Source: Joostella atrarenae
Lineage (GTDB): Bacteria > Bacteroidota > Bacteroidia > Flavobacteriales > Flavobacteriaceae
Assembly (NCBI RefSeq): GCF_021764745.1
Contig: NZ_JAETXX010000008.1
Span: forward strand, 62,548 to 126,547
DNA length: 64,000 bases
Direction of reading: 5' to 3'
Shown here: one piece after another, positions 760 to 33,775 of the stretch
How the letters are laid out: each line of letters starts with the position of its first letter
Numbering within the stretch: position 1 is the stretch's first letter
Notes under the pieces: generated by a model
Databases searched by the model: none
Seen by the model: only the letters and a program-made list of their open reading frames with translations
Told to the model about the DNA's origin: nothing
Made by a program: the position numbers and the translations under genes

Positions 760-2037
760 TCATTTAACTTCTACTGGCTTGATTGTTGGTATAAGAACAT
801 AAACTGATACCAAGGCTAGCGGAGCCAAAACCGCTATTAATATAAATGCTGGGGTATACGATTCTAGTGTTATTTGGGGAACAAGCCAGTTCATTATAAT
901 TACTGAAACTGCAGCTATTGTTCCTGCTAAACCTGCAAGTGTTCCTACAGATGGGCCACTAAATAAATCACTTGAAATTGTTTGGATATTTCCAATTGCA
1001 AATTGAAATCCGAATAGTACTACTCCTACTACATATATAAATGTCATTGGGTTTTCTCCTGAAACTAAAAATATGATTCCTAATAACCCTAAAAATATTA
1101 ATGAAGCGCCTATTGTAATAGCTATTTTTCTTGCTGCGTCAACAGATTTTGTCTGCATTAATTTCCCACAAAACCATCCTCCTAAAATACTTCCAGCCAT
1201 TCCTCCTAAGTAAGAAATCCATAATGTTGCTCCAATCTGCTCGATACTAAAGCCATATTTAGAATTTAAATATATTGGCATCCAACCAACAAACAACCAC
1301 CAGATAGGCTCTATAAAGAATCTAGTTGCCAATACTCCCCATGCTTCTTTATGCTTTAAAATATTAGCTACACTTAACCCCTTTTCTTTAGGAGCATCTT
1401 CAAGTTCGTCTTTTTTTATTCGGTCATTGAGGATGAGATTGCGTTCTTCTTCGGTAATCCATGAATGTTTTTCTGGTGTTGCTTTATTGATAAATAACCA
1501 TGGTATTACCCAAAGCAATCCGATGACTCCCAAAATTATAAACGTAGTTCTCCATCCAAATGAACTATATAAAACTGCAATTAAAGCTGGAGCAATAACA
1601 CTCCCTAAGGAAGCCCCCGCATTGAAAATACCTTGTGCTATAGCTCTTTCTTTTACAGGAAACCACTCTCCATTGCTCTTTACAGCTCCCGGCCAGTTTC
1701 CAGCCTCTCCTAATCCTAAGAAACCTCTTACGATTGACAATGAAACTAAACCTTTAGCAAATGCGTGTAATACTGCAGAAAGTGACCAAACAACAATAGA
1801 AACTGTGAATCCTAGTCGCGTCCCTATTTTATCATATAATTTTCCAGATAGAAATTTTCCTGCAGCATAGGTTATCATAAAAACATTAAGCATTACTGCA
1901 TAATCTGATTCGTCCATACCTAAGTCTTTCCCCATCTCTGGCCACATGACTCCAAATGCAGTACGATCGATGTAATTAATTACCGTGGCTAGACCTATTA
2001 AAGCAATAATCCACCATCTTAATCCTTTAACTTTCAT
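760..2037 (-). CDS. MFS transporter, ACS/hexuronate-type (candidate uronate/DEH/KDG importer)
   Basis: 425 aa with ~12 predicted TM helices. N-terminus WWIIALIGLATVINYIDRTAFGVMWPEMGKDLG resembles ExuT/ACS-family MFS. Sits next to the GntR regulator and SDR, as in alginate loci. Confidence 0.7.
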   Translation of the reverse strand: MKVKGLRWWIIALIGLATVINYIDRTAFGVMWPEMGKDLGMDESDYAVMLNVFMITYAAGKFLSGKLYDKIGTRLGFTVSIVVWSLSAVLHAFAKGLVSLSIVRGFLGLGEAGNWPGAVKSNGEWFPVKERAIAQGIFNAGASLGSVIAPALIAVLYSSFGWRTTFIILGVIGLLWVIPWLFINKATPEKHSWITEEERNLILNDRIKKDELEDAPKEKGLSVANILKHKEAWGVLATRFFIEPIWWLFVGWMPIYLNSKYGFSIEQIGATLWISYLGGMAGSILGGWFCGKLMQTKSVDAARKIAITIGASLIFLGLLGIIFLVSGENPMTFIYVVGVVLFGFQFAIGNIQTISSDLFSGPSVGTLAGLAGTIAAVSVIIMNWLVPQITLESYTPAFILIAVLAPLALVSVYVLIPTIKPVEVK

Positions 2038-2211
2038 ATGTTTTCCAATTAAGTCGATTATTCTTAAAAACTGGGCAATACTTTCTACTCAAGCCTGATT
2101 TATAAAATCATACTCGACAAAATAAGTAATGCTATTTTTAGGAAAATAGGGAGTCTGAAACGACTTATATTTCCTTATTAAATAATCAATGTTTAAATTC
2201 TATTCTTTTTT

Positions 2212-2949
2212 TTAACGAGATTGTGCGATCTCAGTATTTCCAGTTACATCTATATTGTAACAATATTGATACAGGCTTTTAAAATGAACCTTCATTTTTT
2301 CTTTAGCCAATTTTGGATCCTTATTCTTTATAGCCTCATATATCTCTTTATGCTCTTTAATTCCTATAATTGCCTGATTATCATCACAGACATGATACTT
2401 TTCAAAATTGGTAATTATCTCTGGTGTAATAATTAACATAAAAGTATTCATGGTACGGTTTCCGCTAGCTTTTGCTATGGCCAGATGGAATAACAAATCT
2501 TCTTGCACTGCATCTTTACCATTTAATACTTTCTCTTCAAAAGCATCCAAAGCATCTTTCATCTTCACCAATTGATCTTCAGTTCTCCTTAAAGCTGCTA
2601 ACCTAACAGTTTTTAATTCCAAAAGAATTCTAGTCTCTACCAACGATTTAAAATCTGGATTATCTAGACTTAAAATATCAGAAACCATCCCATTTAAAGC
2701 AATAATACCGATATTGGCAACAAAAGTCCCACTTTGCGGAATCGACTTCAATAAACCATAAAACTCTAAAGTTTGAATAGCTTCTCGTAAGTTATTTCTA
2801 CTCACCCCAAACTTTTCTGCCATCATTCTTTCTGAAGGCAATTTATCTCCAGGCTCTAGGTTTTTATAATTTATTAGTTCTCGTATCTTAGAAATTATTT
2901 CATTCCTAACATCTTGATTTTCGATTTTATTTAAAGCTTCAATTTTCAT
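2212..2949 (-). CDS. GntR-family (FadR subfamily) transcriptional regulator
   Basis: N-terminal winged-HTH PGDKLPSERMMAEKFGVSRNNLREAIQTLEFYGLL followed by an all-helical FCD-like C-terminal domain. A TGGTTAACCA palindrome lies just upstream of its start. Confidence 0.8.
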   Translation of the reverse strand: MKIEALNKIENQDVRNEIISKIRELINYKNLEPGDKLPSERMMAEKFGVSRNNLREAIQTLEFYGLLKSIPQSGTFVANIGIIALNGMVSDILSLDNPDFKSLVETRILLELKTVRLAALRRTEDQLVKMKDALDAFEEKVLNGKDAVQEDLLFHLAIAKASGNRTMNTFMLIITPEIITNFEKYHVCDDNQAIIGIKEHKEIYEAIKNKDPKLAKEKMKVHFKSLYQYCYNIDVTGNTEIAQSR

Positions 2950-3187
2950 TGTAAATACGTTAAATTATAAAACGTAAAATTGGTTAACCAGTTTGAGTTA
3001 TCAAATTTATAAAAATAAAGTTTAACAAAAAACTATAATCATTAATAATTATATACTATTTCCTCACTAAACTAGCCTTAGTTTTATCAATTTGATATTG
3101 ATATTTGCCGGCCCCCAACCGGCAAATACCAAAAAGCACTAACTAAAATAACAAATCTACCTCATAACAATTATCATATAAAAACTA

Positions 3188-4285
3188 TTAACTTGGCGGG
3201 TAACATAGTAATAGTTTCGATTCTATTTTAGATTTAAAAATAACTTCTCCTATTGCTACCGACATAAAAAACTCATCTCCTTGTCGGTAAGCAAATTCTT
3301 TACCATTACAGTAAATTATTCCTTCTCCATAATATATTACTACTACATAGAAATTTTCTTGCTGTTTAATGGAATATTCTCCATTAAGGCATAATTCACT
3401 AAGACCAAAACAATTAGTATGCGCATCGTTAAAGATTGTACTAAAAGTATATTCATCTGAAGTATCTATTGCTCTAGGAGCAACTTTCCATTGATTAAGA
3501 GCCTCCTCATATGTATAGCCATCATAATGAAAGCAATCTAGCATTTTTTGTTCACCTACTCCTTGATGAATCAACTCATCTGATATCTCCAATCCGGTAG
3601 GAGTAATTCTTTCTACACGCATTGTATAATCTGTTGGCTCCTGTACTTCCATTAAGAAACATCCACTCCCAATAGCATGTGGAACACCTCCATATATCAT
3701 AAAAGCATCTCCTGGTTTTACCTCAATCCTATGTAAACTATTAAGCATGCCTTCTATGTCTTGACTTAAAAAAAGTTTTTCCCATTTTTCTCTGGTTATT
3801 CCTTTTTTAAATCCCATATACACAACGCTTTTCTCACCGTCTATTTCTCTGGTATTTAAAACATACCAAGACTCTGTTTTACCATACGATGAAGAAAGTA
3901 CATGCTTAGCATAATTCTTATCTGGATGAACTTGAATAGTAAGACGTTCACGAGAATCTAGCATTTTTATTAATACTCCAGTAGAGTCAAATTTTTTAAT
4001 AAAATCTTTCCCTAAGAAAAGCTCTTTATCTGAATCGATAATATCCTTGAGAGATATAATACCATTATCGGTTTCGATTTCAGAAAGTCCTTCCCCTTCT
4101 GATCTATTATTTCCTCTAGCAGTTATGGTAGACATAATCCATTCTTCTGGAAAACTGTTATCAACCTGCTGCTTTTCTTCCTTCCATTTATCAATTAAAG
4201 CACCTCCAGAATAAGTACGCCACACCCTGTTTGTTGACTGCTTTAGTGGCATTTTTGCATATTTCTGTAAATCCTTATTATTCAT
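3188..4285 (-). CDS. Cupin-type sugar isomerase, class I phosphomannose-isomerase-like
   Basis: 365 aa with PMI-like motifs QVHPDK and ESWYVL plus a C-terminal cupin beta-rich region. Tightly coupled (2-bp gap) to the downstream transporter. Confidence 0.5.
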   Translation of the reverse strand: MNNKDLQKYAKMPLKQSTNRVWRTYSGGALIDKWKEEKQQVDNSFPEEWIMSTITARGNNRSEGEGLSEIETDNGIISLKDIIDSDKELFLGKDFIKKFDSTGVLIKMLDSRERLTIQVHPDKNYAKHVLSSSYGKTESWYVLNTREIDGEKSVVYMGFKKGITREKWEKLFLSQDIEGMLNSLHRIEVKPGDAFMIYGGVPHAIGSGCFLMEVQEPTDYTMRVERITPTGLEISDELIHQGVGEQKMLDCFHYDGYTYEEALNQWKVAPRAIDTSDEYTFSTIFNDAHTNCFGLSELCLNGEYSIKQQENFYVVVIYYGEGIIYCNGKEFAYRQGDEFFMSVAIGEVIFKSKIESKLLLCYPPS

Positions 4286-4287
4286 GT

Positions 4288-5550
4288 TTATTTTATTAAT
4301 TCAATTACTCCTTTGATTCCTGTGATAGAAGTAAAAATTGCAAAGATCAAAATGACCGTTAATATTATATTTGATTTAATACCTGCTTTATAAACTCCCA
4401 TTAAGTCTTTTCTATTTACGAGATAAAAAATTCCAAGAACAGTTAGTGGTAAAATGATTGCGTTTAACGCTTGTGAAAGTATCATCACAAATACTGGGCG
4501 GCCATTAAATATAGGAACCACCAATCCCAATAAAGAGATTAAAAAAACAATAATTCTATATTTCGGTAAACTCATATCCCTTTCAGACTCATTATAATCA
4601 CAAATTAACCATGGTAACATTAATATGTTAGGAAATTGTGATGAAACACCAGCCGCTATGATTCCAATTGCAAAAATAGACGAGGCTAAACCACCAGCTA
4701 AAGGTTCTAATAATTCAATCATTTGTGAAGCTTCAGATAGTTGTATTCCTTCTTTATATAAAGTCCCTGCCGCAGCTGCCATGATAGATCCACTTATTAA
4801 AAACATTAAAGTAGCTGAAAAACGGGCATCATTCTTTTGCTTCTTTAAATCTCCTACTGTCCAACCTGCTTCTTCAACCAAAGTTGTTCTAATTATGAAT
4901 AAACCTGAAAACACCGTTGTTCCTATTAAAGATGCAATTACAAGTAACGGACTTCCGCCTTCATTAATTGTTTCTGGCACGTTTGGTATAAGTCCTTTTA
5001 AAATAGCTATTGGCGGAGGCATCATAATAAAAAAATTAATTAAAAAACTCGCCGACATTATAGCTACAATTACTGCTAATGCTCTTTCAAAAAATTGGGT
5101 TTTACCATTCCAAAATATGTAATAAACCAAAGAAATAAAGAACAGTGCAAAATAAATTGGAGATATACCGCCAGTAATCACACTTTTTGACCACTCGTAA
5201 CATATATCTGCTACTATTCCCATTACGCCCATAACACTCCCACAAACACCAACTGTTAAGGCTATTATGAAAAAAATACCGACTCCTGGGTGTATATGGT
5301 TTTTAAATGCTTGTAAAGCAGTCTCTCCAGTAACAAGCGTATATTTACCATATAAATTAATCATGAAATAAGTAGTTAAACAAGACGCTACAATGGTCCA
5401 AAGCAAAGACATTCCATAAACAGCTCCAGCATTTGCCATTGCTGTAACACTCCCTGTACCTATATTGAGTCCCAGTAAAAATATCCCTGGTAAGAATAAT
5501 GCAATATAATTGGACAGCTTAGAGCGCCATGATTTTTTATTATGTACCAT
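4288..5550 (-). CDS. NRAMP/MntH-like polytopic membrane transporter
   Basis: 420 aa with ~11 TM segments. N-terminal segment GTGSVTAMANAGAVYGMSLLW resembles the NRAMP DPGN..GAQFGYKLLW region, but the metal-binding DPGN motif is not conserved, so substrate is uncertain. Confidence 0.45.
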   Translation of the reverse strand: MVHNKKSWRSKLSNYIALFLPGIFLLGLNIGTGSVTAMANAGAVYGMSLLWTIVASCLTTYFMINLYGKYTLVTGETALQAFKNHIHPGVGIFFIIALTVGVCGSVMGVMGIVADICYEWSKSVITGGISPIYFALFFISLVYYIFWNGKTQFFERALAVIVAIMSASFLINFFIMMPPPIAILKGLIPNVPETINEGGSPLLVIASLIGTTVFSGLFIIRTTLVEEAGWTVGDLKKQKNDARFSATLMFLISGSIMAAAAGTLYKEGIQLSEASQMIELLEPLAGGLASSIFAIGIIAAGVSSQFPNILMLPWLICDYNESERDMSLPKYRIIVFLISLLGLVVPIFNGRPVFVMILSQALNAIILPLTVLGIFYLVNRKDLMGVYKAGIKSNIILTVILIFAIFTSITGIKGVIELIK

Positions 5551-5743
5551 GCTTTTGTTTTCTGAAATTAGTAGTTAAAAAAGGGTAATCATCCTTATTT
5601 TTAGTTGAGTATAAATAACTCAGTAATGATAGAAACGGCAACCCATTTCTATATTAATCTTGAAAATTTAGAATTCATTACCCTTTTTACTTCTAGTAAC
5701 ATAACAAACTAACTCAAAATCAATTATAACGACTAGACACTTA

Positions 5744-7288
5744 TTAATACCCTGGATTCTGAGGCAATAAATTAGGATTTCTTTCTAACTCATCTTCTGG
5801 CAATGGTAATAAGTAATCATCAGCAGTAAAAAACGGTTTTGCTCCTTCTAATCCTGATGCACTAAATGCCTCATCTCCTAATTGTCTTCTTACTATATCA
5901 TACCATCTTTTACCTTCGAAAGCAAGTTCTAATCTACGCTCTTCCATTATATCGTCAATGGTAACTGTTCCTGTAAGATCTGCTGGCACAGCACTCGCTG
6001 GAAAAACATACTGAATGTCAGCTCCAGTTTTTGTAGCTCCACCCATTCTTGCTCTACTTCTTACTTGATTTATATAATTTAAAGCAGCACCATTATCTCC
6101 TAATTCTACAGCAGCTTCAGCGGCAATTAATAATACTTCAGCATAACGAATCATTGAATAATTGTGACTTGTTGCTCTAGCATTTGCACGTGCATATTCC
6201 CCAGGATAACGCATGTATTTTGCTATATAAGGATTGTTTTTAGCAAACTGGTGACCACTAATATCAAACTGAGTGTAATCTACAACAGTACCACCAATAG
6301 ACGCTTCATCATCTAAACTAACTGCTCTTCTGTAGTCTCCACTATCCCATGTTGTATACACTTCAAGTGTTGGCACTGCAACAGACCATCCTCCACCGTC
6401 ATTTCTATCATCCCCACGAATACCTGTCATCGGTGCTGTTTGGTCATAGGCATTATTTTCAGCCTCAAAATTATTATAATCTAAAGCAAATATTGGCTCT
6501 GGAGAAGCATCTATAACTTCTGCATTAAATAAATTTTGAAAGTTAGGGTCTAATGAATATGTACCACTTTTTATAACTTTTGTAGCATAATCGTACGCAC
6601 TCTGAAAATCTGCCGTATTACTTGTTCCTGCTCTTGTTAAATACACTAAAGCTAAGTAAGACGAAGCAGCTCCTTGAGAAGGTATTGCTGCAGATGCTGT
6701 ATTTTTTGGCAGCCAAGTTTCCGCATATTCTAAGTCGGCAATAATTTTCTCATATACTTCTGCAACTGAAGATTTTTCAATATTAGAAGTAGCATCTACA
6801 TCTGTTATTGGCTCGTCAATGTATGGAACCTCCCCAAACAATCTAACCAAATGGAAGTAATAAAATGCTCTTGCAAAGTAAGCCTGAGCTGTTATTGGAT
6901 TTTTTATAGCATCTGAAGCGTCTACATCTTCAGCTCCAGCAATCGCTAAATTAGCGGCTGCAATTCCTTGATATGCTTTTGGCCAAAATTCAATCAACAT
7001 TCCGTTATTAGCTAATGTTGTGAATTCATTCATTTCTACTCGTCTAGTTTCATTAGAAGCTAGACTTACCATATCTGATCTTAACATTAATGCTATGGAA
7101 AGTTTTCTTCCCCAAAATGTTTCGTTGATAGCATGTGTAAGCGAACCATCTACCGCTGCTTGAATATCACTTGGCGATGCAAAAAATCCTTCAGGAGCTA
7201 AAATCCCTACAGGCTCTTCTTCTAAATCTGAACACCCTATCATTGATATTCCCATTAATAATAAAAGTATATATCTATATGTTTTCAT
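5744..7288 (-). CDS. susD: SusD/RagB-family outer-membrane glycan-binding lipoprotein
   Basis: Lipoprotein signal peptide with Cys (MISMIGCSD), ~514 aa, immediately downstream of a SusC gene. TPR-like helical composition with C-terminal W/Y-rich motifs typical of SusD. Confidence 0.85.
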   Translation of the reverse strand: MKTYRYILLLLMGISMIGCSDLEEEPVGILAPEGFFASPSDIQAAVDGSLTHAINETFWGRKLSIALMLRSDMVSLASNETRRVEMNEFTTLANNGMLIEFWPKAYQGIAAANLAIAGAEDVDASDAIKNPITAQAYFARAFYYFHLVRLFGEVPYIDEPITDVDATSNIEKSSVAEVYEKIIADLEYAETWLPKNTASAAIPSQGAASSYLALVYLTRAGTSNTADFQSAYDYATKVIKSGTYSLDPNFQNLFNAEVIDASPEPIFALDYNNFEAENNAYDQTAPMTGIRGDDRNDGGGWSVAVPTLEVYTTWDSGDYRRAVSLDDEASIGGTVVDYTQFDISGHQFAKNNPYIAKYMRYPGEYARANARATSHNYSMIRYAEVLLIAAEAAVELGDNGAALNYINQVRSRARMGGATKTGADIQYVFPASAVPADLTGTVTIDDIMEERRLELAFEGKRWYDIVRRQLGDEAFSASGLEGAKPFFTADDYLLPLPEDELERNPNLLPQNPGY

Positions 7289-7306
7289 TGTATTCTTTTT
7301 TTATGA

Positions 7307-10300
7307 TTAAAATTTCACGCTAAGGCTCATATTAACAGATCTTACAGTAGGATAGTTTCCAAAATCGAATCCTTGTGCCGTATTCGATGAGAAATTATTA
7401 CTTCCTTCTGAACCAACATAATTTACTTCTGGATCTAAACCAGAGTAACTAGTAAAAGTCAACAAATTCTGTACACTAAGAGATAATCTGAAGTTTTCCA
7501 TTCCTAATTTTTCTACTAAACTAGATGGGAAATTATACCCTATAGCTAAATTCTTCAATCTTACGTAACTACCATCCTCTACAAATCGAGAAGATATTTC
7601 TCTGTTACTATTATTTCCAACTCTTGGCACATCTGTATTGGTATTATTAGGTGTCCAAGCATTGTTGTAATTATCTTGAGTTGTATTGGCATCTCCATTA
7701 GATAATTGTACGTTCGTCATATTAAAAATCTCTCCTCCTTGAGAACCTTGAAAAAAGATATTCAAATCGATATTTTTATATGAGAATGTATTTGTGAAAC
7801 CCCAAGTGAAATCTGGATTTGGATCACCAATAGTTGTTCTATCAGCTTCAGTAATGTCTCCACTATCATCTATATCTGCAAATAATGGATCTCCTGCAAC
7901 CCCTCCGTTTAAAGTAGCTGTACCTTCTGGTGCAGTTCCACCTTGATAAACTCCAGCATAATCATAACCCCAGAATAAACCTACAGATTCTCCTTCTCTT
8001 AACACATAACTTCTATCATGAGAAAAATATGATGGAGCTGCATTTCCGAAGTAATCTAAACCTCCAACTAAGCTAACAACTTCGTTATTGTTAAATGCGA
8101 TATTAAAATCTGTTCTCCACTGAAAGTTTTCATTAGAAATATTAATCGTGTTTAAAGAAACCTCAACACCATTATTATTAATCTCACCAACATTTGTTAG
8201 AATTTCATCATCTAAATAACCCGTATATTCTGGTAAGGCATTATTTATTAATATTAAATCTTTGGTATCAATGTCATAATAATCTACTGAAAGATTTAAT
8301 CTGTTGCTAAAAAGTCCTAAATCAATACCGAAGTTAGTTTGGTATGAAGACTCCCACTTTAAGTTTGGATTCGCAGGACGGTCTGGAGTAACTGCACTAA
8401 CAGTTTGCCCGTTGCTAGACGCATAAATTCCTTGTATCCTTGCTAAAGACTCGTAAGCACCAATAGAAGGGTTACCAGTAACACCATAACTAGCTCTTAA
8501 TTTTAAATTGGTTATAGTCTGGCTATCTTCCAAAAAGCTTTCATTAGAAATTTTCCATCCTAAAGCCCCTGATGGGAAAACAGCATACTTCTCGTTCTCA
8601 GCAAAGTTTGATGCACCATCTCGTCTAACTGTAGCCGTGATTAAATATCTATCATCAAAGTCATAGTTTAAACGTCCAAACTGAGATTGAATTTCAACTT
8701 CAGAAATAGAAGAGTCTGGCTGTAAAACATTTGTTGCTGAACCAAAACCATAATAAGAAAAACTATCAGAAAGAAATCCTGTTGCTTCCATATAGCTATA
8801 TTCGGAAACCGATTTTTGGTAAGAATAACCTCCTAATAAAGTTAAGCTCCCTTTCCCTATTTCTGCTTTATATGTTAAATAATTCTCACTTAATAATGTA
8901 GTATTTTTATTATACTGAATAGATGCTCTTCCATCGTTACCTGCAGAAGTAATTTTTAAAGTTGAAGGAGAGAAAATACCTCTTGTTCTATTTTCTGTAC
9001 TAAAACCAAATGTTGATTTAAAAGAAAGGTTGTTTAGAATATCATAACCCGCATATAAATTCGCTCTAAATTTATCTGTCTTAAGTTCATCTATACGCTC
9101 TGTAGCAACTGCATATGGATTATCCACAGGATCTCCAATAGAGTTTCCTGCATTATAAGTACCATCAGCATCGTAAACTGGCTGATCTGGAGCATATCTT
9201 AAAGCTAGCGTTATAACGTCATCTCCCCCTGCAGAAACAGAACCATCCGATTGTGTAGCAGCTCCATTTTTCTCTTCTCTACTACCAAAAAGATTCATTC
9301 CTAAGTTTAATTTGTCTGTTACATTCGCATCAACATTAGATAAGAATGTTAATTTCTCGAAATCAGAATTAATTAAAACCCCTTCCTGTTGGAAGTAATT
9401 TGTAGATGCATAGAAGTTTATATTATCTGAACCTCCAGAAACAGAAAGTTGATACGTTTCTGTACTTCCAGTTCTATATATCAAATCTTGCCAATCTGTA
9501 TCCGCTGGCCCTTGAGTATAAGCACTTGTGCTTTGCGTATTAGCTCTAATATCGTTTTGGTAATTGGCAAACTCATCTGCATTTAATAAGTCTATTTCAT
9601 TAGCAGTATTCTGCATAACGTAAGACGTATTAAACTCTACATTTATTTTACCACTTCTACCCTTTTTAGTAGTTACTAGAATTACACCATTAGAACCTCT
9701 AGAACCGTATATAGCTGTTGCCGATGCATCTTTTAAAACTTCCATAGAAGCTATATCTGTAGCTTGAGGCATCGAAGCTCCTACAAATCCATCTACAACA
9801 ATAAGCGGATTACTACTAGCATTTATAGATGTATTACCTCTAATTTTTATACTGATAGGTGCTCCAGGCTCACCACCATTATTAGACTGAACAACAACAC
9901 CCGCGGCACGTCCTTGAAGCGCTTCTTCCGCATTACCAGTAGGAAATGCAGTTAACTCTTCTGACTTTACTGAAGACACAGCTCCCGTAATGTCACTCTT
10001 TTTTTGAGATCCATACCCTACAATAACTACCTCATCAAGCTCTTCTAAATCTTGCTCTAATGCAATATCAATAGTTTCTTGACCTGAAATTGTTACGGTT
10101 TGCTCAATAAAACCAATAAAGCTAAAAGAAACTTTATCTCCATTTTTTATGTTTATTGAGTAATTACCGTCAAAATCGGTAACAACCCCATTTCTACTAT
10201 TAGCAACTAGTACATTTACTCCAGGAATTGGAACTCCATCTGATTTGGATACAACTGTACCACTTAGTAAATATGTATCTTGTGCTATACCTGAATAATG

Positions 10301-10345
10301 ACATACAATCATTATCAAAAATATAGTTAACATCTTGAATTTCAT
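7307..10345 (-). CDS. susC: SusC/RagA-family TonB-dependent outer-membrane transporter
   Basis: 1012 aa. N-terminal carboxypeptidase-regulatory-like domain, TonB-box/plug (DEVVIVGYGSQKK) and C-terminal beta-barrel ending in an aromatic residue (...SVKF). Paired with SusD. Confidence 0.9.
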   Translation of the reverse strand: MKFKMLTIFLIMIVCHYSGIAQDTYLLSGTVVSKSDGVPIPGVNVLVANSRNGVVTDFDGNYSINIKNGDKVSFSFIGFIEQTVTISGQETIDIALEQDLEELDEVVIVGYGSQKKSDITGAVSSVKSEELTAFPTGNAEEALQGRAAGVVVQSNNGGEPGAPISIKIRGNTSINASSNPLIVVDGFVGASMPQATDIASMEVLKDASATAIYGSRGSNGVILVTTKKGRSGKINVEFNTSYVMQNTANEIDLLNADEFANYQNDIRANTQSTSAYTQGPADTDWQDLIYRTGSTETYQLSVSGGSDNINFYASTNYFQQEGVLINSDFEKLTFLSNVDANVTDKLNLGMNLFGSREEKNGAATQSDGSVSAGGDDVITLALRYAPDQPVYDADGTYNAGNSIGDPVDNPYAVATERIDELKTDKFRANLYAGYDILNNLSFKSTFGFSTENRTRGIFSPSTLKITSAGNDGRASIQYNKNTTLLSENYLTYKAEIGKGSLTLLGGYSYQKSVSEYSYMEATGFLSDSFSYYGFGSATNVLQPDSSISEVEIQSQFGRLNYDFDDRYLITATVRRDGASNFAENEKYAVFPSGALGWKISNESFLEDSQTITNLKLRASYGVTGNPSIGAYESLARIQGIYASSNGQTVSAVTPDRPANPNLKWESSYQTNFGIDLGLFSNRLNLSVDYYDIDTKDLILINNALPEYTGYLDDEILTNVGEINNNGVEVSLNTINISNENFQWRTDFNIAFNNNEVVSLVGGLDYFGNAAPSYFSHDRSYVLREGESVGLFWGYDYAGVYQGGTAPEGTATLNGGVAGDPLFADIDDSGDITEADRTTIGDPNPDFTWGFTNTFSYKNIDLNIFFQGSQGGEIFNMTNVQLSNGDANTTQDNYNNAWTPNNTNTDVPRVGNNSNREISSRFVEDGSYVRLKNLAIGYNFPSSLVEKLGMENFRLSLSVQNLLTFTSYSGLDPEVNYVGSEGSNNFSSNTAQGFDFGNYPTVRSVNMSLSVKF

Positions 10346-10545
10346 AAGTTTATAATATTTAGTTAGTTTTAAATTTTAACAAATAATCCCTAGGGATAAC
10401 TTAGTATCCTATTCACTATTTACTTAAATGTAATTGGTGTATTAACTTTTGAAGTTACTTATGAAAATATGTATCTTTGTAACTTCAAATTACTTATTAA
10501 GTAATTGCATGTTTAAATTTACTTCTTAACGAAGTTTTACAAAAA

Positions 10546-10573
10546 GGATAGGTGTGCGCCTGTCCTTTTTTTT
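10546..10573. terminator. Bidirectional rho-independent terminator (GGATAGG-TGTGCGC-CCTGTCC hairpin, A5 upstream and T8 downstream)
   Basis: Read directly: aaaaaGGATAGGtgtgcgcCTGTCCtttttttt. The stem pairs with one G-U wobble. It lies between the kdgF-like stop and the susC promoter region. Confidence 0.6.
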
Positions 10574-10770
10574 GGTGCTAAAATCAATTTTTCATGTTGA
10601 GCTTGTTTTCATAATTTTCAATTAATCATAATTGGTTTACCAAATTGGTTTACCAAATATATGTTATTTAAGTGTTAACTAAAAATGTTTTTGGTAAAAT
10701 ATTGTAGTTAAAAATGCTTTTTTAACAAAAAACTGCACTCAAAATAATCAGTTAGACAATAGCGTGACTT

Positions 10771-11121
10771 TTATTCCATAAAATCTTCTCTAATAGGACT
10801 AAAAACATCTATTAACACTCCTTCCTCTTTACAAATAGCTCCGTGCATTTCGTGTGGTGGAATGTAAAATGAATCCCCTCCTTCCATCAATTTTGTTTCT
10901 CCGTCAATAGTAAGTTCGAACTTTCCACTCACTACATAGGTAACTTGAGAGTGATAATGCTCATGCATGGAACCTACGCCACCTTTATCAAAGTGAACTT
11001 TTACAAGCATGATTTTATCATCATAGCCCATAATTTTTCTTTTCACTCCTTCAGCAACTTGTTCCCATTCCATTTCAGCTCCTTTGATAAATTTGTCGCT
11101 TGTTCCGAATGTTTTTTCCAT
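10771..11121 (-). CDS. kdgF: Small cupin protein, KdgF-like (pectin/alginate degradation protein)
   Basis: 116 aa single cupin with His cluster (HEHYHSQV ... PPHEMHG). Position between lyases and SusC matches kdgF in alginate PULs. Confidence 0.65.
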   Translation of the reverse strand: MEKTFGTSDKFIKGAEMEWEQVAEGVKRKIMGYDDKIMLVKVHFDKGGVGSMHEHYHSQVTYVVSGKFELTIDGETKLMEGGDSFYIPPHEMHGAICKEEGVLIDVFSPIREDFME

Positions 11122-11135
11122 TTTTTATTTACTTT

Positions 11136-13403
11136 TTATTTAATTAATAGGTAATAAGGCCCTTTCCAACTAAGGTCAGTTCCGTTTATTTTTATTGAAT
11201 GTTTTTCTTTTACTTTAGCATCATTATTTGCTATAGCCAAAACTATTATCTTATCTGTAATTGTTCTTATTTTTACCACAGTATATGCTTCATCGGATGG
11301 TAAAACTTCAATAGTTTTTATACTACTAAAAGCATTACTAGCTTTTTCAGTAACGGCATTATAACCACCATGCTTTTCTATAACTGAAGCAAAAATAGCG
11401 TTATCTGTGTTATTCTTTCTGATAACAAAACCTGGATCTCTCCGTAAATTAAATTCTGGATCTTTTGCTCCTAAACGAGTAAAAAACAATTTGTATTTTT
11501 CTGAAGTTGAACTCGTAAGTGTATAAAATTTATTATTTGACAACCAACTAAAACTAGCTGTTTCTTTATTGCTACTCCCAGAAGCCTCTTTATACAGGTG
11601 TTGATATCCATTATCTGTTCCAAAAGGAGTCAAACTAGAAAAGCTATCCATTTTAAAATCTGTACTTATTATTTGTCCAAAGAAATAGTACGGTAAATCA
11701 AATTGATGTTTCTCTTCTGATGAAACTTTAAAAATGTCTATTGTCAGCGGATTTTCAATGCCATCTATATTTACCAATGCCATTGTTCTATGAAGCTTTG
11801 TTCCTTGATATGCATTACTATCTTTCACACTGACGATCTGAATGTTATCATTTGAAAAATCTGAAAAATATTTTAACGGGTTATACTTACTTCCTGTTTC
11901 ATAATCTCCATTAAAATGCGATTTTTCATCTTGAACAATAGTATTATGAGCTATTGTTTGTTTTGCCCAAGTAGTATTCTCCTTTAAATACCCTCCTCCA
12001 TTCTTCTGATCTATGTTTACAAAACGAGCCAAGCCATAATCCTGAATTATCTCATCTCCATCTGAATATAAAGAAAAAGAAAGCTTGTCGTAATGCCCAT
12101 GACTACTTCCTTGAGATGTATATTTAACGACTAAAGACATTGGTGTTTTCGATTGTAGAGGTCTTAATATTGATATTCCCCCTTGATTTCCTTTAGGACC
12201 GTCTAATAATTCTATAGATTTCTTAATTGAAGATGTAAAATCACCTTCAGCAACACCTTTAGCCACAGCTAATCCCGCAGAACTCAATGTAACAGATTGC
12301 TGCTTTTTAGCAATCTCTAAAAGTGACGGATCTTGATCTCCATAATAATATGCAATATCAACAGCATTAATCATAGCTCCTGTATAATAAGACATTCCCT
12401 TTTGTGCATCATTTAAAGGGAAGAAATCCCCATCTGAATCTGTTAATTGCACCAAAGCACTCACGGCTTTAATCAACACATTATCTTTAAATTTAAAAAT
12501 ATCTTTATCCCAACCTGTATTATAAAGCCCTTCAGCAAAAACCATAAATGGATACATGGCATAACGCTGGTAATATGGTCCTTCTGTATAATATCCCGAA
12601 GGAGAAAAAGCCTCGTAAAGATTTGCCATAAATCCAGCTTTTCCATCAGCATCAAAAATGGTTCCCCCGTCGTTATCCTTCTCTGATAAGTCTAAATTTT
12701 CAGTATCCAATCCATAAAGCGCTCTATTTACCAAGGTAGTATCACGCATTGCTAATCCGATCATTCCTACAGCTGCATTTCCCCATGTACTATGATTGTG
12801 AATACGATTAAAAAATTTAGGGTTTTCAATTGATAAGAAATCAGCAAAAGGAATAAAAAGCTCAGACTCTAAATAATCTCTATCTTCTTCAGATAACCAA
12901 TCATAAATACTATCATACGCCTGACTCATATATACCAACCAATTGGCATCATTTAAACATTGCCAGAAAATCTTCCCTCTAGAATAAGACCTTTCCTCTG
13001 GATGCAATGGTAGTCCTTTATAAATTTTAGCATATTCAAAAAGTACGTCTTTCGTAAACTCTGCATACTTTTTATCGCCTAGAATTTGAAATAATACTCC
13101 CGCTTTCTGAAGGATATAAAAGTTCTTCTTATGACGTTCATGTGTATATCCTCCAGCCATATCTTTAGGGATTGGCACATGAATTCCTGTAGCTATATCT
13201 GCATCGACTTCTTCTTTAGTCTCTTTTAACGTAGCATCGAACAAAGGTAGATTCCCTAATTCCTTTTTAATAGAAGCTACTCCTTGTTTTGTTAATATTA
13301 AACTAGGATGCTCTTCCGTAGAAAATTGCTTTTGAGCATATATGCAGTTAGAAAAAACTACACATATTAATACTATTAAAAAGTTGTTATTTACCTTCTT
13401 CAT
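11136..13403 (-). CDS. Polysaccharide lyase with N-terminal alginate-lyase (alpha/alpha toroid) and C-terminal heparinase II/III-like domains; PL17-like oligoalginate lyase candidate
   Basis: 755 aa with signal peptide. NHSTWGN segment and overall two-domain size match PL17/heparinase II/III-type lyases. Adjacent to a PL6-like gene. Confidence 0.55.
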   Translation of the reverse strand: MKKVNNNFLIVLICVVFSNCIYAQKQFSTEEHPSLILTKQGVASIKKELGNLPLFDATLKETKEEVDADIATGIHVPIPKDMAGGYTHERHKKNFYILQKAGVLFQILGDKKYAEFTKDVLFEYAKIYKGLPLHPEERSYSRGKIFWQCLNDANWLVYMSQAYDSIYDWLSEEDRDYLESELFIPFADFLSIENPKFFNRIHNHSTWGNAAVGMIGLAMRDTTLVNRALYGLDTENLDLSEKDNDGGTIFDADGKAGFMANLYEAFSPSGYYTEGPYYQRYAMYPFMVFAEGLYNTGWDKDIFKFKDNVLIKAVSALVQLTDSDGDFFPLNDAQKGMSYYTGAMINAVDIAYYYGDQDPSLLEIAKKQQSVTLSSAGLAVAKGVAEGDFTSSIKKSIELLDGPKGNQGGISILRPLQSKTPMSLVVKYTSQGSSHGHYDKLSFSLYSDGDEIIQDYGLARFVNIDQKNGGGYLKENTTWAKQTIAHNTIVQDEKSHFNGDYETGSKYNPLKYFSDFSNDNIQIVSVKDSNAYQGTKLHRTMALVNIDGIENPLTIDIFKVSSEEKHQFDLPYYFFGQIISTDFKMDSFSSLTPFGTDNGYQHLYKEASGSSNKETASFSWLSNNKFYTLTSSTSEKYKLFFTRLGAKDPEFNLRRDPGFVIRKNNTDNAIFASVIEKHGGYNAVTEKASNAFSSIKTIEVLPSDEAYTVVKIRTITDKIIVLAIANNDAKVKEKHSIKINGTDLSWKGPYYLLIK

Positions 13404-13404
13404 A

Positions 13405-15768
13405 TTATAATTTTTCTTTTATCAAGCCAATGCTTTTCCCATCTGTAGCTTGATTATTAAGCTTTGATTCTTTAGATACTAAATATGAATCTGTAAATAC
13501 TGGAGTAACATCATAAAGCTCCTCCATATTATATTTTTGATCTCCTGTTACTATTGGTTTAGGCGTGTTATGAAAGTTTAAATTAGAAATATCTACTATC
13601 GGCTCTCCAACTACCAAATGCGCCTTTAAAGTCTTAGAATCTGAGAAAATACTATTCTTCATATCCACAACCTGCACGCCATATAAAGAAACTGCTGCAT
13701 CTTGAGTGTTTCTTTTTCCCTTCCCTACATTATCAAAAACACAATGATCTAACTCCAAAAATGGTCCGAAAGTACTTTCATCTTTTCCTCCTCTGTATAA
13801 GTTTAATGCAACCCCTTCAATATTAGAATATAAGTTATTCTTTAATATTACATATTCCGCATTATAAATTCCAATATCTTCAGTTTCCTTATTTAGTGAG
13901 ATTACATCACCAGTAATTTTATTGAAGTTAGAGTTTTTAATACTAATGGTGTCTGCAAATGTATTTTTATACACTTTTATAGCATCAAAAGAATGGTTTA
14001 CATCAAGATTTATAAAGCTACAGTTATCTACAAAAAGCTTGTAATTGTCATTCATAGAGTACTTACTCGTAGTAATAACTGAATTTCCTGTTCTATCTGG
14101 TGCATTCTTCCCGTCAAATACAATTCCTGCTACAGATAGCTTACCTCCGTTGGCAATTTCAAAAACATTTTTCTTTTCGAATAAGATTGTTGCCTTCTGA
14201 TTTTCATCTCCAATAAAGCTTAATGGCTTCTCAATCGTTATAGTTTTTGTTAATTGATAAGGAGCTGTAGATTCTAATTGAAGAATATCCCCCGCTTTTG
14301 CATTTGCAACTGCTTCATTAAGGGTATTTAATCCTGGTTTTACTTTAATGACCTCACCACTAGATAACGCAGGTTCCGCATCTTTCTTGCTATACCAAGC
14401 TACTCCAGTTGTTTTCTTTGATGGAATTGAATCCCCTATGGTAGCACCAGCTTTTATATCTGCGGAAGCAGTAAACAATCCGTTTTCATCTTTTACTAAT
14501 TCTAATTTTTTCTGAACAAATCCACCTTCTGTTAGTGGTTTTACATTAGGACTGATAATGTTATTGTCAAATGAAATCCCAGAAATATCATCATAAACAG
14601 TAAATAACTGATCCTGTTTTTCATTATAAAAGATATTGTTTGCTATCACAGAATTTATAGGTGTTGCACTTCGTTCTTCATCGCTCCCCGCGCATAACTG
14701 AATATGGTCTGAATTTATAAATGTATTATTTTCTACTCGTGCATCTTCCACTTGAAAGTATCTATTTATTGGAGAATTTGGAACGCCATTCATCATCACA
14801 AAAGCACCTCTAAAACGATATCCTGTAATACCATCTAAGTAATTATTAATAACTGTTTGCTGACCGTTAATTACTCGTATCCCCCCAGTATTAGGCTTTC
14901 TATTACCTAAGAAAACATTTCCCTCTACCCATGTTTCATTTCCATGTCTCATGGTTAATGTTCCTTTACACTCATAAAAAATATTATTCTTAAAGGTGTT
15001 CTGACAAGACTTATTTGAGATAATTTCAAGCTCCCCACTACATCTATCAAAATAGTTAGATGCTACTAATGTTTTGGAATTGGTTAACGAATAATGACTT
15101 GTTCCTATACGTAACGTCTCTCCCCCATTAGAACCCAAAGTAGGCCTTGGACCGAAATAATTATGATCTATTTTATGATTATTCTCACGACTTTCCTCTG
15201 TATTTAATCTAACAGTCATCGTCACTCCTCTATTTCTCTTCCCTGATAAATGATTGTGATCTATTCTGTTATTCTTACCATAAATCGCAACCCAAGTATC
15301 TGGCTCATGCCTTTCTGGATTACTAAAATTATCTATCACACACTGGGTGAGTCTACTATTATTTGCAAGATGATCGTTATCTTTTTTAAAAGAAATAACT
15401 TCATTTGTTGGAGTAAAACCATCTTTAAAAACCAAACCTTCAACAACAAGATATTCTCCTGCTAATCTAAGGTTAGAGTTACCCGTAAAAATTACTTTTC
15501 CTTTTTCTTCTGCTCGTAATGTAATTAAACTATCTACTTTCCCTTGAGCTTCAAAAAGCAATTCTGAATCTTCCCAGATTCCATTAGCTAATATTAAAGT
15601 GTCTCCAGGTTTAACATTACTCAGCGCACTATTCAGTTCTTCTACATTTTTAATAGTAGCTACTTCTGTTTTTGGAGCACAACAGAACATTGTAAATCCT
15701 ATTAATGCTAAGTATAAAGTTTTAAAGTTTTTCATAAAATAAATTGGTTTACCACTTTGGTTGACCAA
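13405..15768 (-). CDS. Right-handed beta-helix polysaccharide lyase, PL6-like (chondroitinase-B/poly-mannuronate lyase fold)
   Basis: 787 aa. N-terminal VEELNSALSNVKPGDTLILANGIW is characteristic of the PL6/chondroitinase-B N-terminus. Repeated N-rich beta-helix turns (NNxxxxN) run throughout. The true start is probably the internal Met (MKNFKTLYL) that begins the signal peptide. Confidence 0.6.
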   Translation of the reverse strand: MVNQSGKPIYFMKNFKTLYLALIGFTMFCCAPKTEVATIKNVEELNSALSNVKPGDTLILANGIWEDSELLFEAQGKVDSLITLRAEEKGKVIFTGNSNLRLAGEYLVVEGLVFKDGFTPTNEVISFKKDNDHLANNSRLTQCVIDNFSNPERHEPDTWVAIYGKNNRIDHNHLSGKRNRGVTMTVRLNTEESRENNHKIDHNYFGPRPTLGSNGGETLRIGTSHYSLTNSKTLVASNYFDRCSGELEIISNKSCQNTFKNNIFYECKGTLTMRHGNETWVEGNVFLGNRKPNTGGIRVINGQQTVINNYLDGITGYRFRGAFVMMNGVPNSPINRYFQVEDARVENNTFINSDHIQLCAGSDEERSATPINSVIANNIFYNEKQDQLFTVYDDISGISFDNNIISPNVKPLTEGGFVQKKLELVKDENGLFTASADIKAGATIGDSIPSKKTTGVAWYSKKDAEPALSSGEVIKVKPGLNTLNEAVANAKAGDILQLESTAPYQLTKTITIEKPLSFIGDENQKATILFEKKNVFEIANGGKLSVAGIVFDGKNAPDRTGNSVITTSKYSMNDNYKLFVDNCSFINLDVNHSFDAIKVYKNTFADTISIKNSNFNKITGDVISLNKETEDIGIYNAEYVILKNNLYSNIEGVALNLYRGGKDESTFGPFLELDHCVFDNVGKGKRNTQDAAVSLYGVQVVDMKNSIFSDSKTLKAHLVVGEPIVDISNLNFHNTPKPIVTGDQKYNMEELYDVTPVFTDSYLVSKESKLNNQATDGKSIGLIKEKL

Positions 15769-15888
15769 ATATATGAATAATTAAATTTTATCCAAATTAA
15801 TTAACGATAAAATAAAAAATAGCCTAATAAAATATCAATTACTCACTATGCTTCTTAACTTTTAGAACCCCTCGCAAATGAAGCGCAT

Positions 15889-17278: not shown

Positions 17279-17740
17279 TTACTCTACAGTGATGGTTATC
17301 GCATCTTTAACGACTTCATAATAATCACCTGTATTATGAATTCCTACACTTACAATATAATTTCCGGGAGCAGTATCTGTACTTAAAGGATATACTATCT
17401 GTCCTAATCCTTGTACAGAAACTTGTTCTGAGAAATATTCTACCGCTGCTTCATCTAATTCTTCTGATCTAACTTCTGCTATAGAAAATGATAATGGTTC
17501 TGTTCCTAGAACTCCACTTATTTTTTGAGAAACCCACGGGGATTCATTCTCAATCCTTAAGGCATCTAATCTTGGATCTAGCTCTAAGCGAATTGTCATT
17601 GTGTTCGGCAAGTATTCTGCATTCTCAACATCTAAAAACCCAACTTCTTTATCGCAACCTACATTTATAAGCCCTATAAAGACTATCAGTATATATATAA
17701 TTGATTTTTTCATCGAAATTGTAATTTTAAAGTTTATCAA
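17279..17740 (-). CDS. Hypothetical lipoprotein
   Basis: 153 aa. Signal peptide with lipobox (LINVGCDKE). No recognisable catalytic motif. Overlaps the upstream gene by 14 nt, so likely co-transcribed. Confidence 0.5.
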   Translation of the reverse strand: MINFKITISMKKSIIYILIVFIGLINVGCDKEVGFLDVENAEYLPNTMTIRLELDPRLDALRIENESPWVSQKISGVLGTEPLSFSIAEVRSEELDEAAVEYFSEQVSVQGLGQIVYPLSTDTAPGNYIVSVGIHNTGDYYEVVKDAITITVE

Positions 17741-18338: not shown

Positions 18339-18339
18339 T

Positions 18340-19899: not shown

Positions 19900-20003
19900 T
19901 TTTTTATTCGTTTTTAATGAATTGTAAAGAAATCTTCACATTATCTATATTGCTTTGGTACTCGTTAGAGCACCTTAGACCTCCATATTACTTTTCATTT
20001 TTA

Positions 20004-23462: not shown

Positions 23463-23581
23463 TATTTTCACAATTTCACATTCATACCGCCTCAGGAAGC
23501 AAGTAGCTCCCTTCGATAGATTTTTTTTCATACATTTATATGATTTTTGTTGTTAATTGATTAGTTAACAGCATCCAAAAA

Positions 23582-23614
23582 CCGGATAGAACGACCAAAT
23601 ACTATCCGGTTTTT
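23582..23614 (-). terminator. Hairpin CCGGATAG-N12-CTATCCGG with flanking T/A runs, between the anti-sigma gene and susC
   Basis: Read directly: aaaaaCCGGATAGaacgaccaaatactATCCGGttttt. A possible intra-operon terminator/attenuator, with T-runs on both strands. Confidence 0.5.
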
Positions 23615-23622
23615 AACTGTTT

Positions 23623-24822: not shown

Positions 24823-24909
24823 TTTGTTACTTATATATTGAATACTAATAATTATTCAATGGTTCTCAGTATGAAGAGCACAAATAAGAGGAAATGGGTG
24901 GAAAAAACT

Positions 24910-33040: not shown

Positions 33041-33054
33041 AGTATTAATATTAA

Positions 33055-33759: not shown

Positions 33760-33775
33760 TTTCAGTGATTTAAAA

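What the first reader, a model, noticed from the sequence alone, without database searches (positions are those of the whole stretch)
2980..15785. Candidate GntR/FadR operator motif TTGGT-NN-ACCAA present at three promoter regions of the alginate PUL.
A tandem direct repeat ATTGGTTTACCAA x2 occurs at 10632-10657, upstream of susC. A near-identical pair TTGGTTTACCAC/TTGGTTGACCAA followed by the same ATATATG lies at 15753-15785, immediately upstream of the PL6-like lyase start. A perfect TGGTTAACCA palindrome lies at 2980-2990, directly upstream of the GntR gene itself. These fit the FadR-subfamily operator core (t.GT-Nx-AC.a). This suggests the GntR regulator represses both its own gene and the two lyase/Sus operons until a uronate-derived inducer is present.
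Basis: partly seen in the sequence, partly recalled or inferred. Interest (0 to 1): 0.55.

Follow-up and report, generated by a model that had tools for sequence, protein, structure and literature searches.

The report
AusR repressor operators in alginate locus
The repeated TGGT-NN-ACCA motif is real and is the already published binding site of the AusR-type repressor that keeps alginate-degrading genes off in marine flavobacteria; next to one of the sites lies a conserved, apparently undescribed small antisense RNA gene.

Summary
Five exact TGGTNNACCA palindromes lie in three intergenic regions of a Joostella alginate utilisation locus, against 0.47 expected in the window. They sit upstream of the PL6 lyase, upstream of susC and upstream of the GntR/FadR regulator gene. 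All genes are on the minus strand. The gntR promoter has the same register, with one decayed and one perfect operator.

This layout matches the published AusR system of Zobellia galactanivorans (Dudek 2020, PMC7641319), where binding was shown by EMSA and released by unsaturated alginate trisaccharides. The motif and its register are conserved in 79 related loci.

One thing appears new. The 288-nt susC leader downstream of the operators carries, on the opposite strand, a conserved unit of about 90 nt. It has its own -7 box, three hairpins and a U-run terminator. Wobble-pair asymmetry, covariation and a pattern-anchored metagenome scan support a cis-antisense sRNA. It has no Rfam match and resembles the DonS-type RNAs of Bacteroides.

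The parts
2212..2949 (-). GntR/FadR-subfamily regulator gene, the AusR-type repressor (245 aa)
   Evidence: Pfam GntR (1.5e-18) and FCD (3.2e-24) domains. It is 100% identical to a Joostella sp. protein and 73-90% identical to the syntenic regulators in 79 loci.
2980..2991 (.). Canonical operator O2 of the regulator's own promoter (core TGGTTAACCA at 2981-2990); it ends 30 nt before the ATG at 2949
   Evidence: An exact core lies within 150 nt upstream of the regulator ATG in 62 of 79 loci, at 18-51 nt in 58 of them.
2993..3004 (.). Decayed operator O1' (TTGATAACTCAA on the minus strand, 3 mismatches), in the same 13-bp register as O1 of the other promoters
   Evidence: Read. The register was compared across loci. 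It corresponds to the 'lost second operator' of PausR in PMC7641319.
3002..3009 (-). -7 box TAAATTTG (TAnnTTTG) of the regulator promoter
   Evidence: Of the 58 loci with an operator core within 60 nt of the regulator ATG, 12 have TAnnTTTG and 27 have TAnnTTTA in this register.
10645..10656 (.). Operator O1 of the susC (TBDT) promoter; it overlaps the -7 box
10632..10643 (.). Operator O2 of the susC promoter, 13 bp from O1
10654..10661 (-). -7 box TATATTTG of the susC promoter; a -33-like TTTT lies at 10681-10684 after a 19-nt spacer
   Evidence: In 68 of 71 operator arrays in related loci, TAnnTTTG overlaps the operator in the same register.
15757..15768 (.). Operator O1 of the PL6 lyase operon promoter; it overlaps the -7 box
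15744..15755 (.). Operator O2 of the PL6 promoter (TTGGTTTACCAC, 1 mismatch), 8 nt before the ATG at 15735
15766..15773 (-). -7 box TATATTTG of the PL6 promoter; the -33 element TTTG lies at 15793-15796 after a 19-nt spacer
10771..15735 (-). Lyase operon: PL6 (13405-15735), PL17-like lyase (11136-13403) and KdgF-like cupin (10771-11121)
   Evidence: Pfam Chondroitinas_B, Alginate_lyase plus Hepar_II_III_C, and Cupin_2.
760..10345 (-). SusC (7307-10345), SusD (5744-7288), Nramp (4288-5550), PMI-type cupin (3188-4285), the regulator gene, and an MFS transporter (760-2037). An SDR gene follows and runs off the window start.
10346..10647 (-). Long 5' leader of susC (about 300 nt), from the predicted start inside O1 to the ATG
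   Evidence: Most operator arrays upstream of a susC-sized ORF in related loci lie 135-332 nt from its ATG; two arrays lie outside that range (42 and 824 nt).
10472..10479 (+). -7 box TATCTTTG of the candidate antisense sRNA
   Evidence: In 46 of 57 orthologous leaders a perfect TAnnTTTG lies 85-99 nt before the end of the terminator stem.
10484..10573 (+). Candidate cis-antisense sRNA of about 90 nt: SL1 10488-10506, SL2 10521-10535, terminator SL3 10546-10565, then eight T at 10566-10573
   Evidence: Covariance-model hit at 10464-10574 on the + strand, 62.7 bits, E 7e-10. Fold. Strand tests. Pair counts.
10584..10595 (-). Mini-ORF ATGAAAAATTGA (MKN*) in the susC leader, 30 nt before the hairpin; unexplained
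   Evidence: All 46 long-spacer leaders carry an ATG 24-35 nt (39 leaders) or 48-54 nt (7 leaders) upstream of the hairpin.

Best explanation
The five palindromes are operators of the AusR-type GntR/FadR repressor encoded at 2212-2949.

Each promoter on the minus strand is built the same way. A Bacteroidetes sigma-A -7 box (TAnnTTTG) shares its last bases (TTTG) with operator O1. Three bases further on lies operator O2, giving a 13-bp period. Repressor dimers bound there cover the -7 box and the predicted transcription start, so RNA polymerase is excluded.

Two intact operators sit at the PL6-PL17-kdgF promoter and at the susC promoter, which should give tight repression. The regulator's own promoter keeps one intact operator, downstream of the -7 box, plus a decayed one. 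That should give weaker autorepression and a basal level of regulator.

When alginate is present, basal lyases make unsaturated oligosaccharides. These bind the FCD domain and release the repressor.

Shown here: the motif, its statistics, its register with the -7 box, and its conservation across genera. Taken from the Zobellia experiments: binding, repression and the identity of the effector.
For: Motif enrichment and restriction to three promoters. The regulator has GntR and FCD domains. The -7 box overlaps O1 at both pair sites, and a perfect -33/19-nt/-7 promoter sits at PL6. The gntR promoter aligns in the same register.

Phylogenetic footprint: 62 of 79 loci from many Flavobacteriaceae genera have an exact core within 150 nt upstream of the regulator ATG, at 18-51 nt in 58 of them. 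53 of 79 have arrays spaced at 13 or 26 bp. In 68 of 71 arrays TAnnTTTG overlaps the operator in the same register.

The published AusR system has the same architecture, with deletion-mutant derepression of up to 245-fold, EMSA, operator-dependent binding and trisaccharide effectors. The best solved-structure match of the window protein is 6AZ6, the same entry reported for AusR.
Against: No binding or expression data exist for this organism. The susC -33 element is imperfect (TTTT). The paper places the PausR -7 box 125 nt from the operator in Zobellia, whereas here a perfect -7 box lies 11 nt upstream. Promoter use at this gene may therefore differ from the published model or be mis-predicted by one of the two analyses.
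Confidence: 0.9

Rival explanations
1. The palindromes are chance products of AT-rich intergenic DNA or a generic part of strong Bacteroidetes promoters. They are not a specific operator.
For: Part of the motif (TTTG) belongs to the -7 box consensus. The intergenic DNA is AT-rich.
Against: 6 matches against 0.47 expected, with 0 of 100 shuffles reaching 6. No other promoter in the 64-kb window carries the motif. The GGTnnACCA part is not in the -7 consensus. The motif is conserved in position and register in 79 loci while the flanking sequence diverges.
Confidence: 0.02
2. The sites are real operators, but they are bound by a different regulator or used for activation rather than repression by the adjacent GntR protein.
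For: No direct binding data exist for this genome. FadR-family proteins can also activate.
Against: The operators overlap the -7 box and the predicted start, which is a repressor geometry. One site lies at the regulator's own promoter in 62 of 79 loci. In Zobellia the orthologous system was shown to be repression by AusR binding these sites.
Confidence: 0.05
3. About the conserved block in the susC leader: it acts on the sense strand, as a terminator of the upstream lyase operon or as a translation-coupled attenuator. It is not an antisense sRNA gene.
For: The hairpin is flanked by an A-run and a T-run, so it can fold on both strands. A conserved mini-ORF start lies 24-35 nt upstream of it on the sense strand in 39 of 46 long-spacer leaders. 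The whole leader folds with a z-score of -3.9.
Against: 58 wobble pairs are valid only on the antisense strand, against 2 only on the sense strand. The U-run averages 7.0 on the antisense strand and 4.05 on the sense strand. The antisense strand folds 4.1 kcal/mol more stably on average, in 44 of 56 sequences. A TAnnTTTG box sits at a fixed 85-99 nt on the antisense strand. The hairpin lies downstream of the susC promoter, not upstream of it, so it is poorly placed to be merely the lyase-operon terminator.
Confidence: 0.25

Closest known systems
AusR repressor and its operators in Zobellia galactanivorans DsijT (Dudek et al., Nucleic Acids Res 2020, PMC7641319)
   Same: Both have a GntR/FadR-subfamily regulator inside the alginate PUL and an operator that fits TKGTN2-3ACMA. 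In both, pairs separated by three bases overlap the -7 box TAnnTTTG at the lyase and TBDT promoters. In both, the regulator's own promoter has a single canonical operator plus a decayed one. The downstream genes include an MFS transporter and an SDR.
   Different: The genus differs (Joostella). The susC promoter has two operators here and three in Zobellia. A perfect -7 box lies 11 nt from the PausR operator here, against 125 nt reported. The first lyase is PL6 here. Nramp and PMI-type cupin genes occupy the stretch between susD and the regulator gene. No experiments exist for this organism.
Modular operator arrangement of Bacillus subtilis catabolic regulons (ara and gan clusters), as compared in PMC7641319
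   Same: Two adjacent operators sit at the enzyme operons and give strong cooperative repression. One operator sits at the regulator gene and gives mild autoregulation.
   Different: The ara and gan clusters serve other substrates (arabinose, galactan) in a different phylum. This parallel is taken from the discussion of the paper and was not tested here.
DonS-type cis-antisense sRNAs of Bacteroides PULs (Cao et al. 2016, as summarised in Ryan et al. 2020, PMC7366714)
   Same: Both are small RNAs encoded opposite the 5' region of a susC homologue in a PUL. DonS-type RNAs are 78-128 nt; the RNA predicted here is 88-105 nt (one 116-nt outlier where no -7 box was matched). Both have their own sigma-A-type promoter and a terminator.
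   Different: The setting differs: marine Flavobacteriaceae and an alginate PUL, rather than gut Bacteroides and host-glycan PULs. This RNA lies wholly inside a long susC leader, downstream of a repressor-controlled promoter, so the two promoters converge. No sequence relationship was tested. Expression and function are unproven here.

Membership tests
AusR regulon (AusR-type operators of flavobacterial alginate utilisation systems) | Regulator of the GntR family, FadR subfamily (HTH plus FCD), encoded within the alginate PUL | tested here: met
   Pfam GntR and FCD domains. The gene lies between susCD and the MFS/SDR genes, next to the PL6, PL17 and KdgF genes.
AusR regulon (AusR-type operators of flavobacterial alginate utilisation systems) | Operator sequence matches TKGTN2-3ACMA | tested here: met
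   TTGGTTTACCAA (twice), TTGGTTGACCAA, TTGGTTTACCAC and TTGGTTAACCAG.
AusR regulon (AusR-type operators of flavobacterial alginate utilisation systems) | Pairs of operators separated by three bases at the lyase and TBDT promoters, overlapping the -7 box TAnnTTTG | tested here: met
   A 13-bp period at 10632/10645 and at 15744/15757, with TATATTTG overlapping O1 at both. The same holds in 68 of 71 arrays in related loci.
AusR regulon (AusR-type operators of flavobacterial alginate utilisation systems) | Single canonical operator, plus a decayed second one, upstream of the regulator gene | tested here: met
   The core at 2981-2990 is perfect; 2993-3004 has 3 mismatches. Conserved in 62 of 79 loci.
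AusR regulon (AusR-type operators of flavobacterial alginate utilisation systems) | Regulator is an ortholog of Z. galactanivorans AusR (ZGAL_2617) | tested here: inconclusive
Indirect support: 73-80% identity to syntenic regulators of Maribacter, Cellulophaga, Arenibacter and others; similar length (245 against 242 aa); the same best PDB relative, 6AZ6.
AusR regulon (AusR-type operators of flavobacterial alginate utilisation systems) | Regulator binds the operators and is released by unsaturated alginate oligosaccharides | not testable with these tools
   Requires EMSA or in vivo work. Shown only for Zobellia.
DonS-like PUL-associated cis-antisense sRNA | Small transcription unit antisense to the 5' region of a susC homologue, 78-128 nt long | tested here: met
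   This is met at the level of sequence prediction only. The -7 box and terminator are oriented antisense, and the predicted RNAs are 88-105 nt, with one 116-nt outlier where no -7 box was matched. There is one copy per locus, always in the susC leader.
DonS-like PUL-associated cis-antisense sRNA | RNA is transcribed and lowers expression of the cognate susC | not testable with these tools
   No transcriptome data were available.
Known Rfam RNA families | Match to a curated covariance model | tested here: not met
   No hit at gathering score in the whole window. In 10300-10800 only chance-level hits appear at E up to 10.

The most novel reading that the evidence does not exclude
The long susC leader of AusR-controlled alginate PULs across the Flavobacteriaceae encodes an undescribed, independently transcribed cis-antisense small RNA. 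It would be about 90 nt, with three hairpins and its own sigma-A -7 box, and it would converge on the AusR-repressed susC promoter. This would add an RNA layer to the published repressor-only model, acting by duplex formation with the susC leader and/or by transcriptional interference. Its likely role would be to tighten the off state or to set an induction threshold. A conserved mini-ORF just upstream of the shared hairpin on the sense strand may be part of the same switch.
Probability: 0.6. Interest if true: 0.6.

Novelty: new member of a known kind. Interest (0 to 1): 0.35.

Why it matters
For the finding as given, the result mainly confirms something known. The AusR operator model, worked out in one Zobellia strain, transfers with base-pair precision to a Joostella genome and to dozens of other genera. 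AusR regulons can therefore be predicted from sequence alone; in this window the regulon is exactly three promoters.

The added value is the conserved antisense unit inside the susC leader. If it is transcribed, the best-understood marine PUL regulatory circuit has a second, RNA-based component. That would parallel the DonS-type RNAs of gut Bacteroides. It would also be directly testable in the genetically tractable Zobellia system.

Tried and rejected
- Rfam search of the whole window at gathering score, and of 10300-10800 at E up to 10. Nothing relevant appeared; the weak MicC-like hit (E 0.5) only reflects a terminator-ended shape.
- The supplementary files of PMC7641319 (species list and operator alignments) are not held. 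I could not check whether Joostella was among the 12 genomes analysed, nor compare sequences site by site.
- The sigma-70 promoter scan is uninformative for Bacteroidetes: 64 hits against 78.8 expected. I used the TAnnTTTG consensus instead.
- A weight-matrix scan for further operators in the window found none above noise. The hits at 39753 and 15080 lie inside genes and were rejected.
- My automated check for a -33 element upstream of the sRNA -7 box found TTG in only 6 of 46 cases. The sRNA promoter therefore rests on the -7 box alone.
- I considered the 399-aa and 161-aa ORFs next to the second susC as a possible Cas12f-sigma pair. Pfam shows an ordinary FecR anti-sigma factor and an ECF sigma factor.
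- Covariance-model hits on the sense strand (20-42 bits) come from the palindromic terminator and were not counted as copies.
- Literature searches found no paper describing an antisense RNA in an alginate PUL. The library is incomplete, so this is not proof of novelty.
Full report
**Layout of the locus**

All genes between 760 and 30753 are on the minus strand. Read in the direction of transcription, the locus contains the following genes:
- a PL6 lyase (13405-15735)
- a PL17-like lyase (11136-13403)
- a KdgF-like cupin (10771-11121)
- SusC (7307-10345) and SusD (5744-7288)
- an Nramp-family transporter (4288-5550) and a PMI-type cupin protein (3188-4285)
- a GntR regulator with an FCD domain, i.e. 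FadR subfamily (2212-2949)
- an MFS transporter (760-2037)
- an SDR that runs off the window start

The regulator is 100% identical to a protein named from a Joostella sp. and 90% identical to that of Joostella sp. CR20.

**Observation**

TGGTNNACCA occurs six times, against 0.47 expected. The sixth, at 39753, is inside a gene.

A weight matrix built from related loci ranks the five sites at 17.3-23.9. The next window site scores 11.7. Over 20 shuffles the best score per shuffle averaged 9.6, the highest being 16.8. Within this 64-kb window the motif therefore marks exactly three promoters.

**Anatomy on the transcribed strand**

Read on the minus strand, the three regions align base for base:

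| Promoter | Sequence |
|---|---|
| PL6 | TATATTTGGTCAACCAAAGTGGTAAACCAATTT |
| susC | TATATTTGGTAAACCAATTTGGTAAACCAATTA |
| gntR | TAAATTTGATAACTCAAACTGGTTAACCAATTT |

- The first eight bases are the Bacteroidetes -7 box TAnnTTTG.
- Operator O1 shares TTTG with the -7 box. O2 follows after three bases, giving a 13-bp period.
- At PL6 a TTTG -33 element sits exactly 19 nt upstream of the -7 box, and the ATG is 8 nt after O2.
- At the regulator's own promoter O1 has decayed (3 mismatches). O2 is a perfect palindrome that ends 30 nt before the ATG.

A protein bound at O1 and O2 would cover the -7 box and the predicted start site, which is the geometry of a repressor. These promoter assignments are consensus-based inference. 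No transcript ends were available.

**Conservation**

A scan of one genome per species with the regulator protein returned 79 loci from many Flavobacteriaceae genera, at 73-90% identity.
- An exact operator core lies within 150 nt upstream of the regulator ATG in 62 of 79 loci, at 18-51 nt in 58 of them.
- Arrays spaced at 13 or 26 bp occur in 53 of 79 loci.
- In 68 of 71 arrays TAnnTTTG overlaps the promoter-proximal operator in the same register as in the window.
- The surrounding intergenic sequence is otherwise poorly conserved.

**Comparison with what is known**

This is the AusR system described by Dudek et al. 2020 for Zobellia galactanivorans (PMC7641319). The paper reports the following:
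- AusR is a 242-aa GntR/FadR-subfamily protein encoded in the alginate PUL.
- Its deletion derepresses the locus by up to 245-fold.
- MEME on Zobellia plus 12 other flavobacteria found a motif that combines the -7 box with operators fitting TKGTN2-3ACMA.
- Pairs are separated by three bases and overlap the -7 box at the lyase and TBDT promoters.
- The ausR promoter has one canonical operator and a second one lost by mutation.
- EMSA showed cooperative, operator-dependent binding.
- The trisaccharides DeltaMM and DeltaMG, and weakly DeltaGG, release AusR. Monomeric mannuronate and guluronate, gluconate and glucose do not.
- The authors state that the motif is conserved in related alginate degraders and that 69 of 70 predicted alginolytic PULs carry an ausR homologue.

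What is new is only the instance in Joostella and a few details:
- The susC promoter has two operators here rather than three.
- A perfect -7 box lies 11 nt from the ausR operator, where the paper places the Zobellia -7 box 125 nt away.
- The gene content differs in places.

I could not retrieve the Zobellia protein or the paper's supplements. Direct orthology is therefore inferred, not measured. The best solved relative of the window protein is 6AZ6, the same entry reported for AusR.

**A second conserved feature in the same region**

The susC operators lie 288 nt upstream of the susC ATG. Most arrays upstream of a susC-sized ORF in related loci have a similar leader of 135-332 nt.

Within this leader a block is far better conserved than its surroundings. 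On the susC-sense strand it reads AAAAAAAGGAYRGGTGCACGCCYATCCTTTT, then ATTACTTC..GAAGTAAT, and about 40 nt further CAAAAATAC. Several independent observations indicate that the functional strand is the opposite one, which is the window plus strand.

1. The reverse complement of the third block is TAnnTTTG. A perfect box lies 85-99 nt before the end of the hairpin in 46 of 57 leaders. In the window it is TATCTTTG at 10472-10479.
2. The T-run after the hairpin averages 7.0 on this strand and 4.05 on the sense strand.
3. In the two conserved helices, 58 cells are G-U wobbles valid only on this strand, and 2 are valid only on the sense strand. One example is a pair that is U-G in 36 sequences and U-A in 20; on the sense strand it would be a C-A mismatch.
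4. Every ortholog folds into three hairpins followed by a U-run. The predicted lengths are 88-105 nt, apart from one 116-nt case where no -7 box was matched. The first hairpin varies in sequence but is always formed.
5. On a model-fitted alignment, 88% of cells pair, against 45-55% when partners are slid. There are 146 compensatory cells against 63 in shuffles (0 of 500 shuffles reach the observed value), and all eight pairs of the main SL1 helix (helix 2) show double changes. The fit of the alignment to the model inflates these numbers somewhat.
6. This strand folds 4.1 kcal/mol more stably than its complement on average, in 44 of 56 sequences.
7. A covariance model finds one strong copy per locus (62-114 bits). 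The window copy is at 10464-10574 on the plus strand (62.7 bits, E 7e-10), and there is no other strong copy elsewhere in the window.
8. The terminator pattern alone retrieved 79 metagenome loci, independently of the regulator:
   - 62 of the 72 with enough flank carry an AusR operator core within 260 nt beyond the terminator.
   - 60 of 62 carry a susC-sized ORF on the opposite strand.
   - 61 of 78 carry the -7 box at the expected distance.

No Rfam family matches. The AusR paper does not mention the leader, and I found no paper describing such an RNA.

The closest known analogues are the DonS-type cis-antisense RNAs of Bacteroides. These are 78-128 nt, lie opposite susC homologues and are repressive.

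**How the RNA might work**

A constitutive antisense RNA would be fully complementary to nucleotides of roughly +75 to +165 of the susC leader. It could pair with leaky or read-through sense transcripts while AusR holds the promoter shut. On induction it would be outcompeted, and its promoter occluded by convergent transcription. This is inference, and transcription of the RNA is itself unproven.

The rival reading is a sense-strand terminator or attenuator. It keeps some weight because a conserved ATG lies 24-35 nt upstream of the hairpin on the sense strand in 39 of 46 long-spacer leaders. It usually reads ATGAAA and opens a 2-8 codon mini-ORF. In the window it is at 10584-10595. The two readings are not mutually exclusive.

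**Verdict**

The novelty is low: this is a new member of the known AusR kind. The leader-encoded antisense unit is the part worth following up.

Noticed in passing
window 10464-10574 (+), inside the susC leader: A conserved unit of about 90 nt with three hairpins, its own TAnnTTTG box and a U-run terminator lies antisense to the susC 5' leader. It occurs once per locus in about 60 genome loci and in 79 metagenome loci, and it matches no Rfam family.
   Followed up: yes
window 10584-10595 (-); orthologous positions in L001-L079: A conserved ATG (mostly ATGAAA) opens a 2-8 codon mini-ORF that stops 5-21 nt before the leader hairpin on the susC-sense strand. It is present in all 46 leaders with a long operator-hairpin spacer and absent from the 11 short-spacer leaders. 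Its function is unexplained.
   Followed up: partly
window 3188-10345 compared with L001 3441-7834, L021 and L034: The SusC/SusD pair appears to have been swapped. The window SusC and SusD are only 38% and 29% identical to those of Joostella sp. CR20, although KdgF, the regulator and the MFS transporter are 90-91% identical and the leader aligns up to the ATG. The window SusC, SusD, Nramp and PMI-cupin instead resemble those of Maribacter aquimaris (67, 68, 76 and 70%).
   Followed up: partly
window 3188-5550 (-): An Nramp-family transporter and a PMI-type cupin protein sit between susD and the regulator gene. Nramp homologues of about 39% identity occur elsewhere in 25 of 79 alginate loci, and the PMI-type cupin in only 2. 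Their role in alginate use is unknown.
   Followed up: partly
window 3014-3033 and 10722-10741 (+): A shared 13-mer, TTAACAAAAAACT, lies upstream of the -7 boxes of both the regulator promoter and the susC promoter. It was not tested for significance or conservation.
   Followed up: no
window 17279-25395 (-): A second, unrelated PUL-like unit lies here: an ECF sigma factor (24910-25395), a FecR anti-sigma factor (23623-24822), SusC (20004-23531), SusD (18340-19899), a fasciclin-domain protein and a thioredoxin-like protein. It carries no AusR operator and no copy of the antisense element.
   Followed up: partly
window 25879-34886 (-): A cluster contains a 1624-aa DUF3686/DUF7902/AAA protein, a 692-aa SPFH (Band 7) protein, an SH3-like protein and a PspA/IM30 protein. 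It may be a membrane-stress or defence module. It was not examined further.
   Followed up: no
L034 10715-10808 (-) and L052 10727-10828 (-): The sRNA covariance model gives weak hits (E about 1e-3 and 0.15) just downstream of the regulator gene. They are probably terminator hairpins in the ausR-MFS intergenic region, where the Zobellia paper suspected conditional termination.
   Followed up: no
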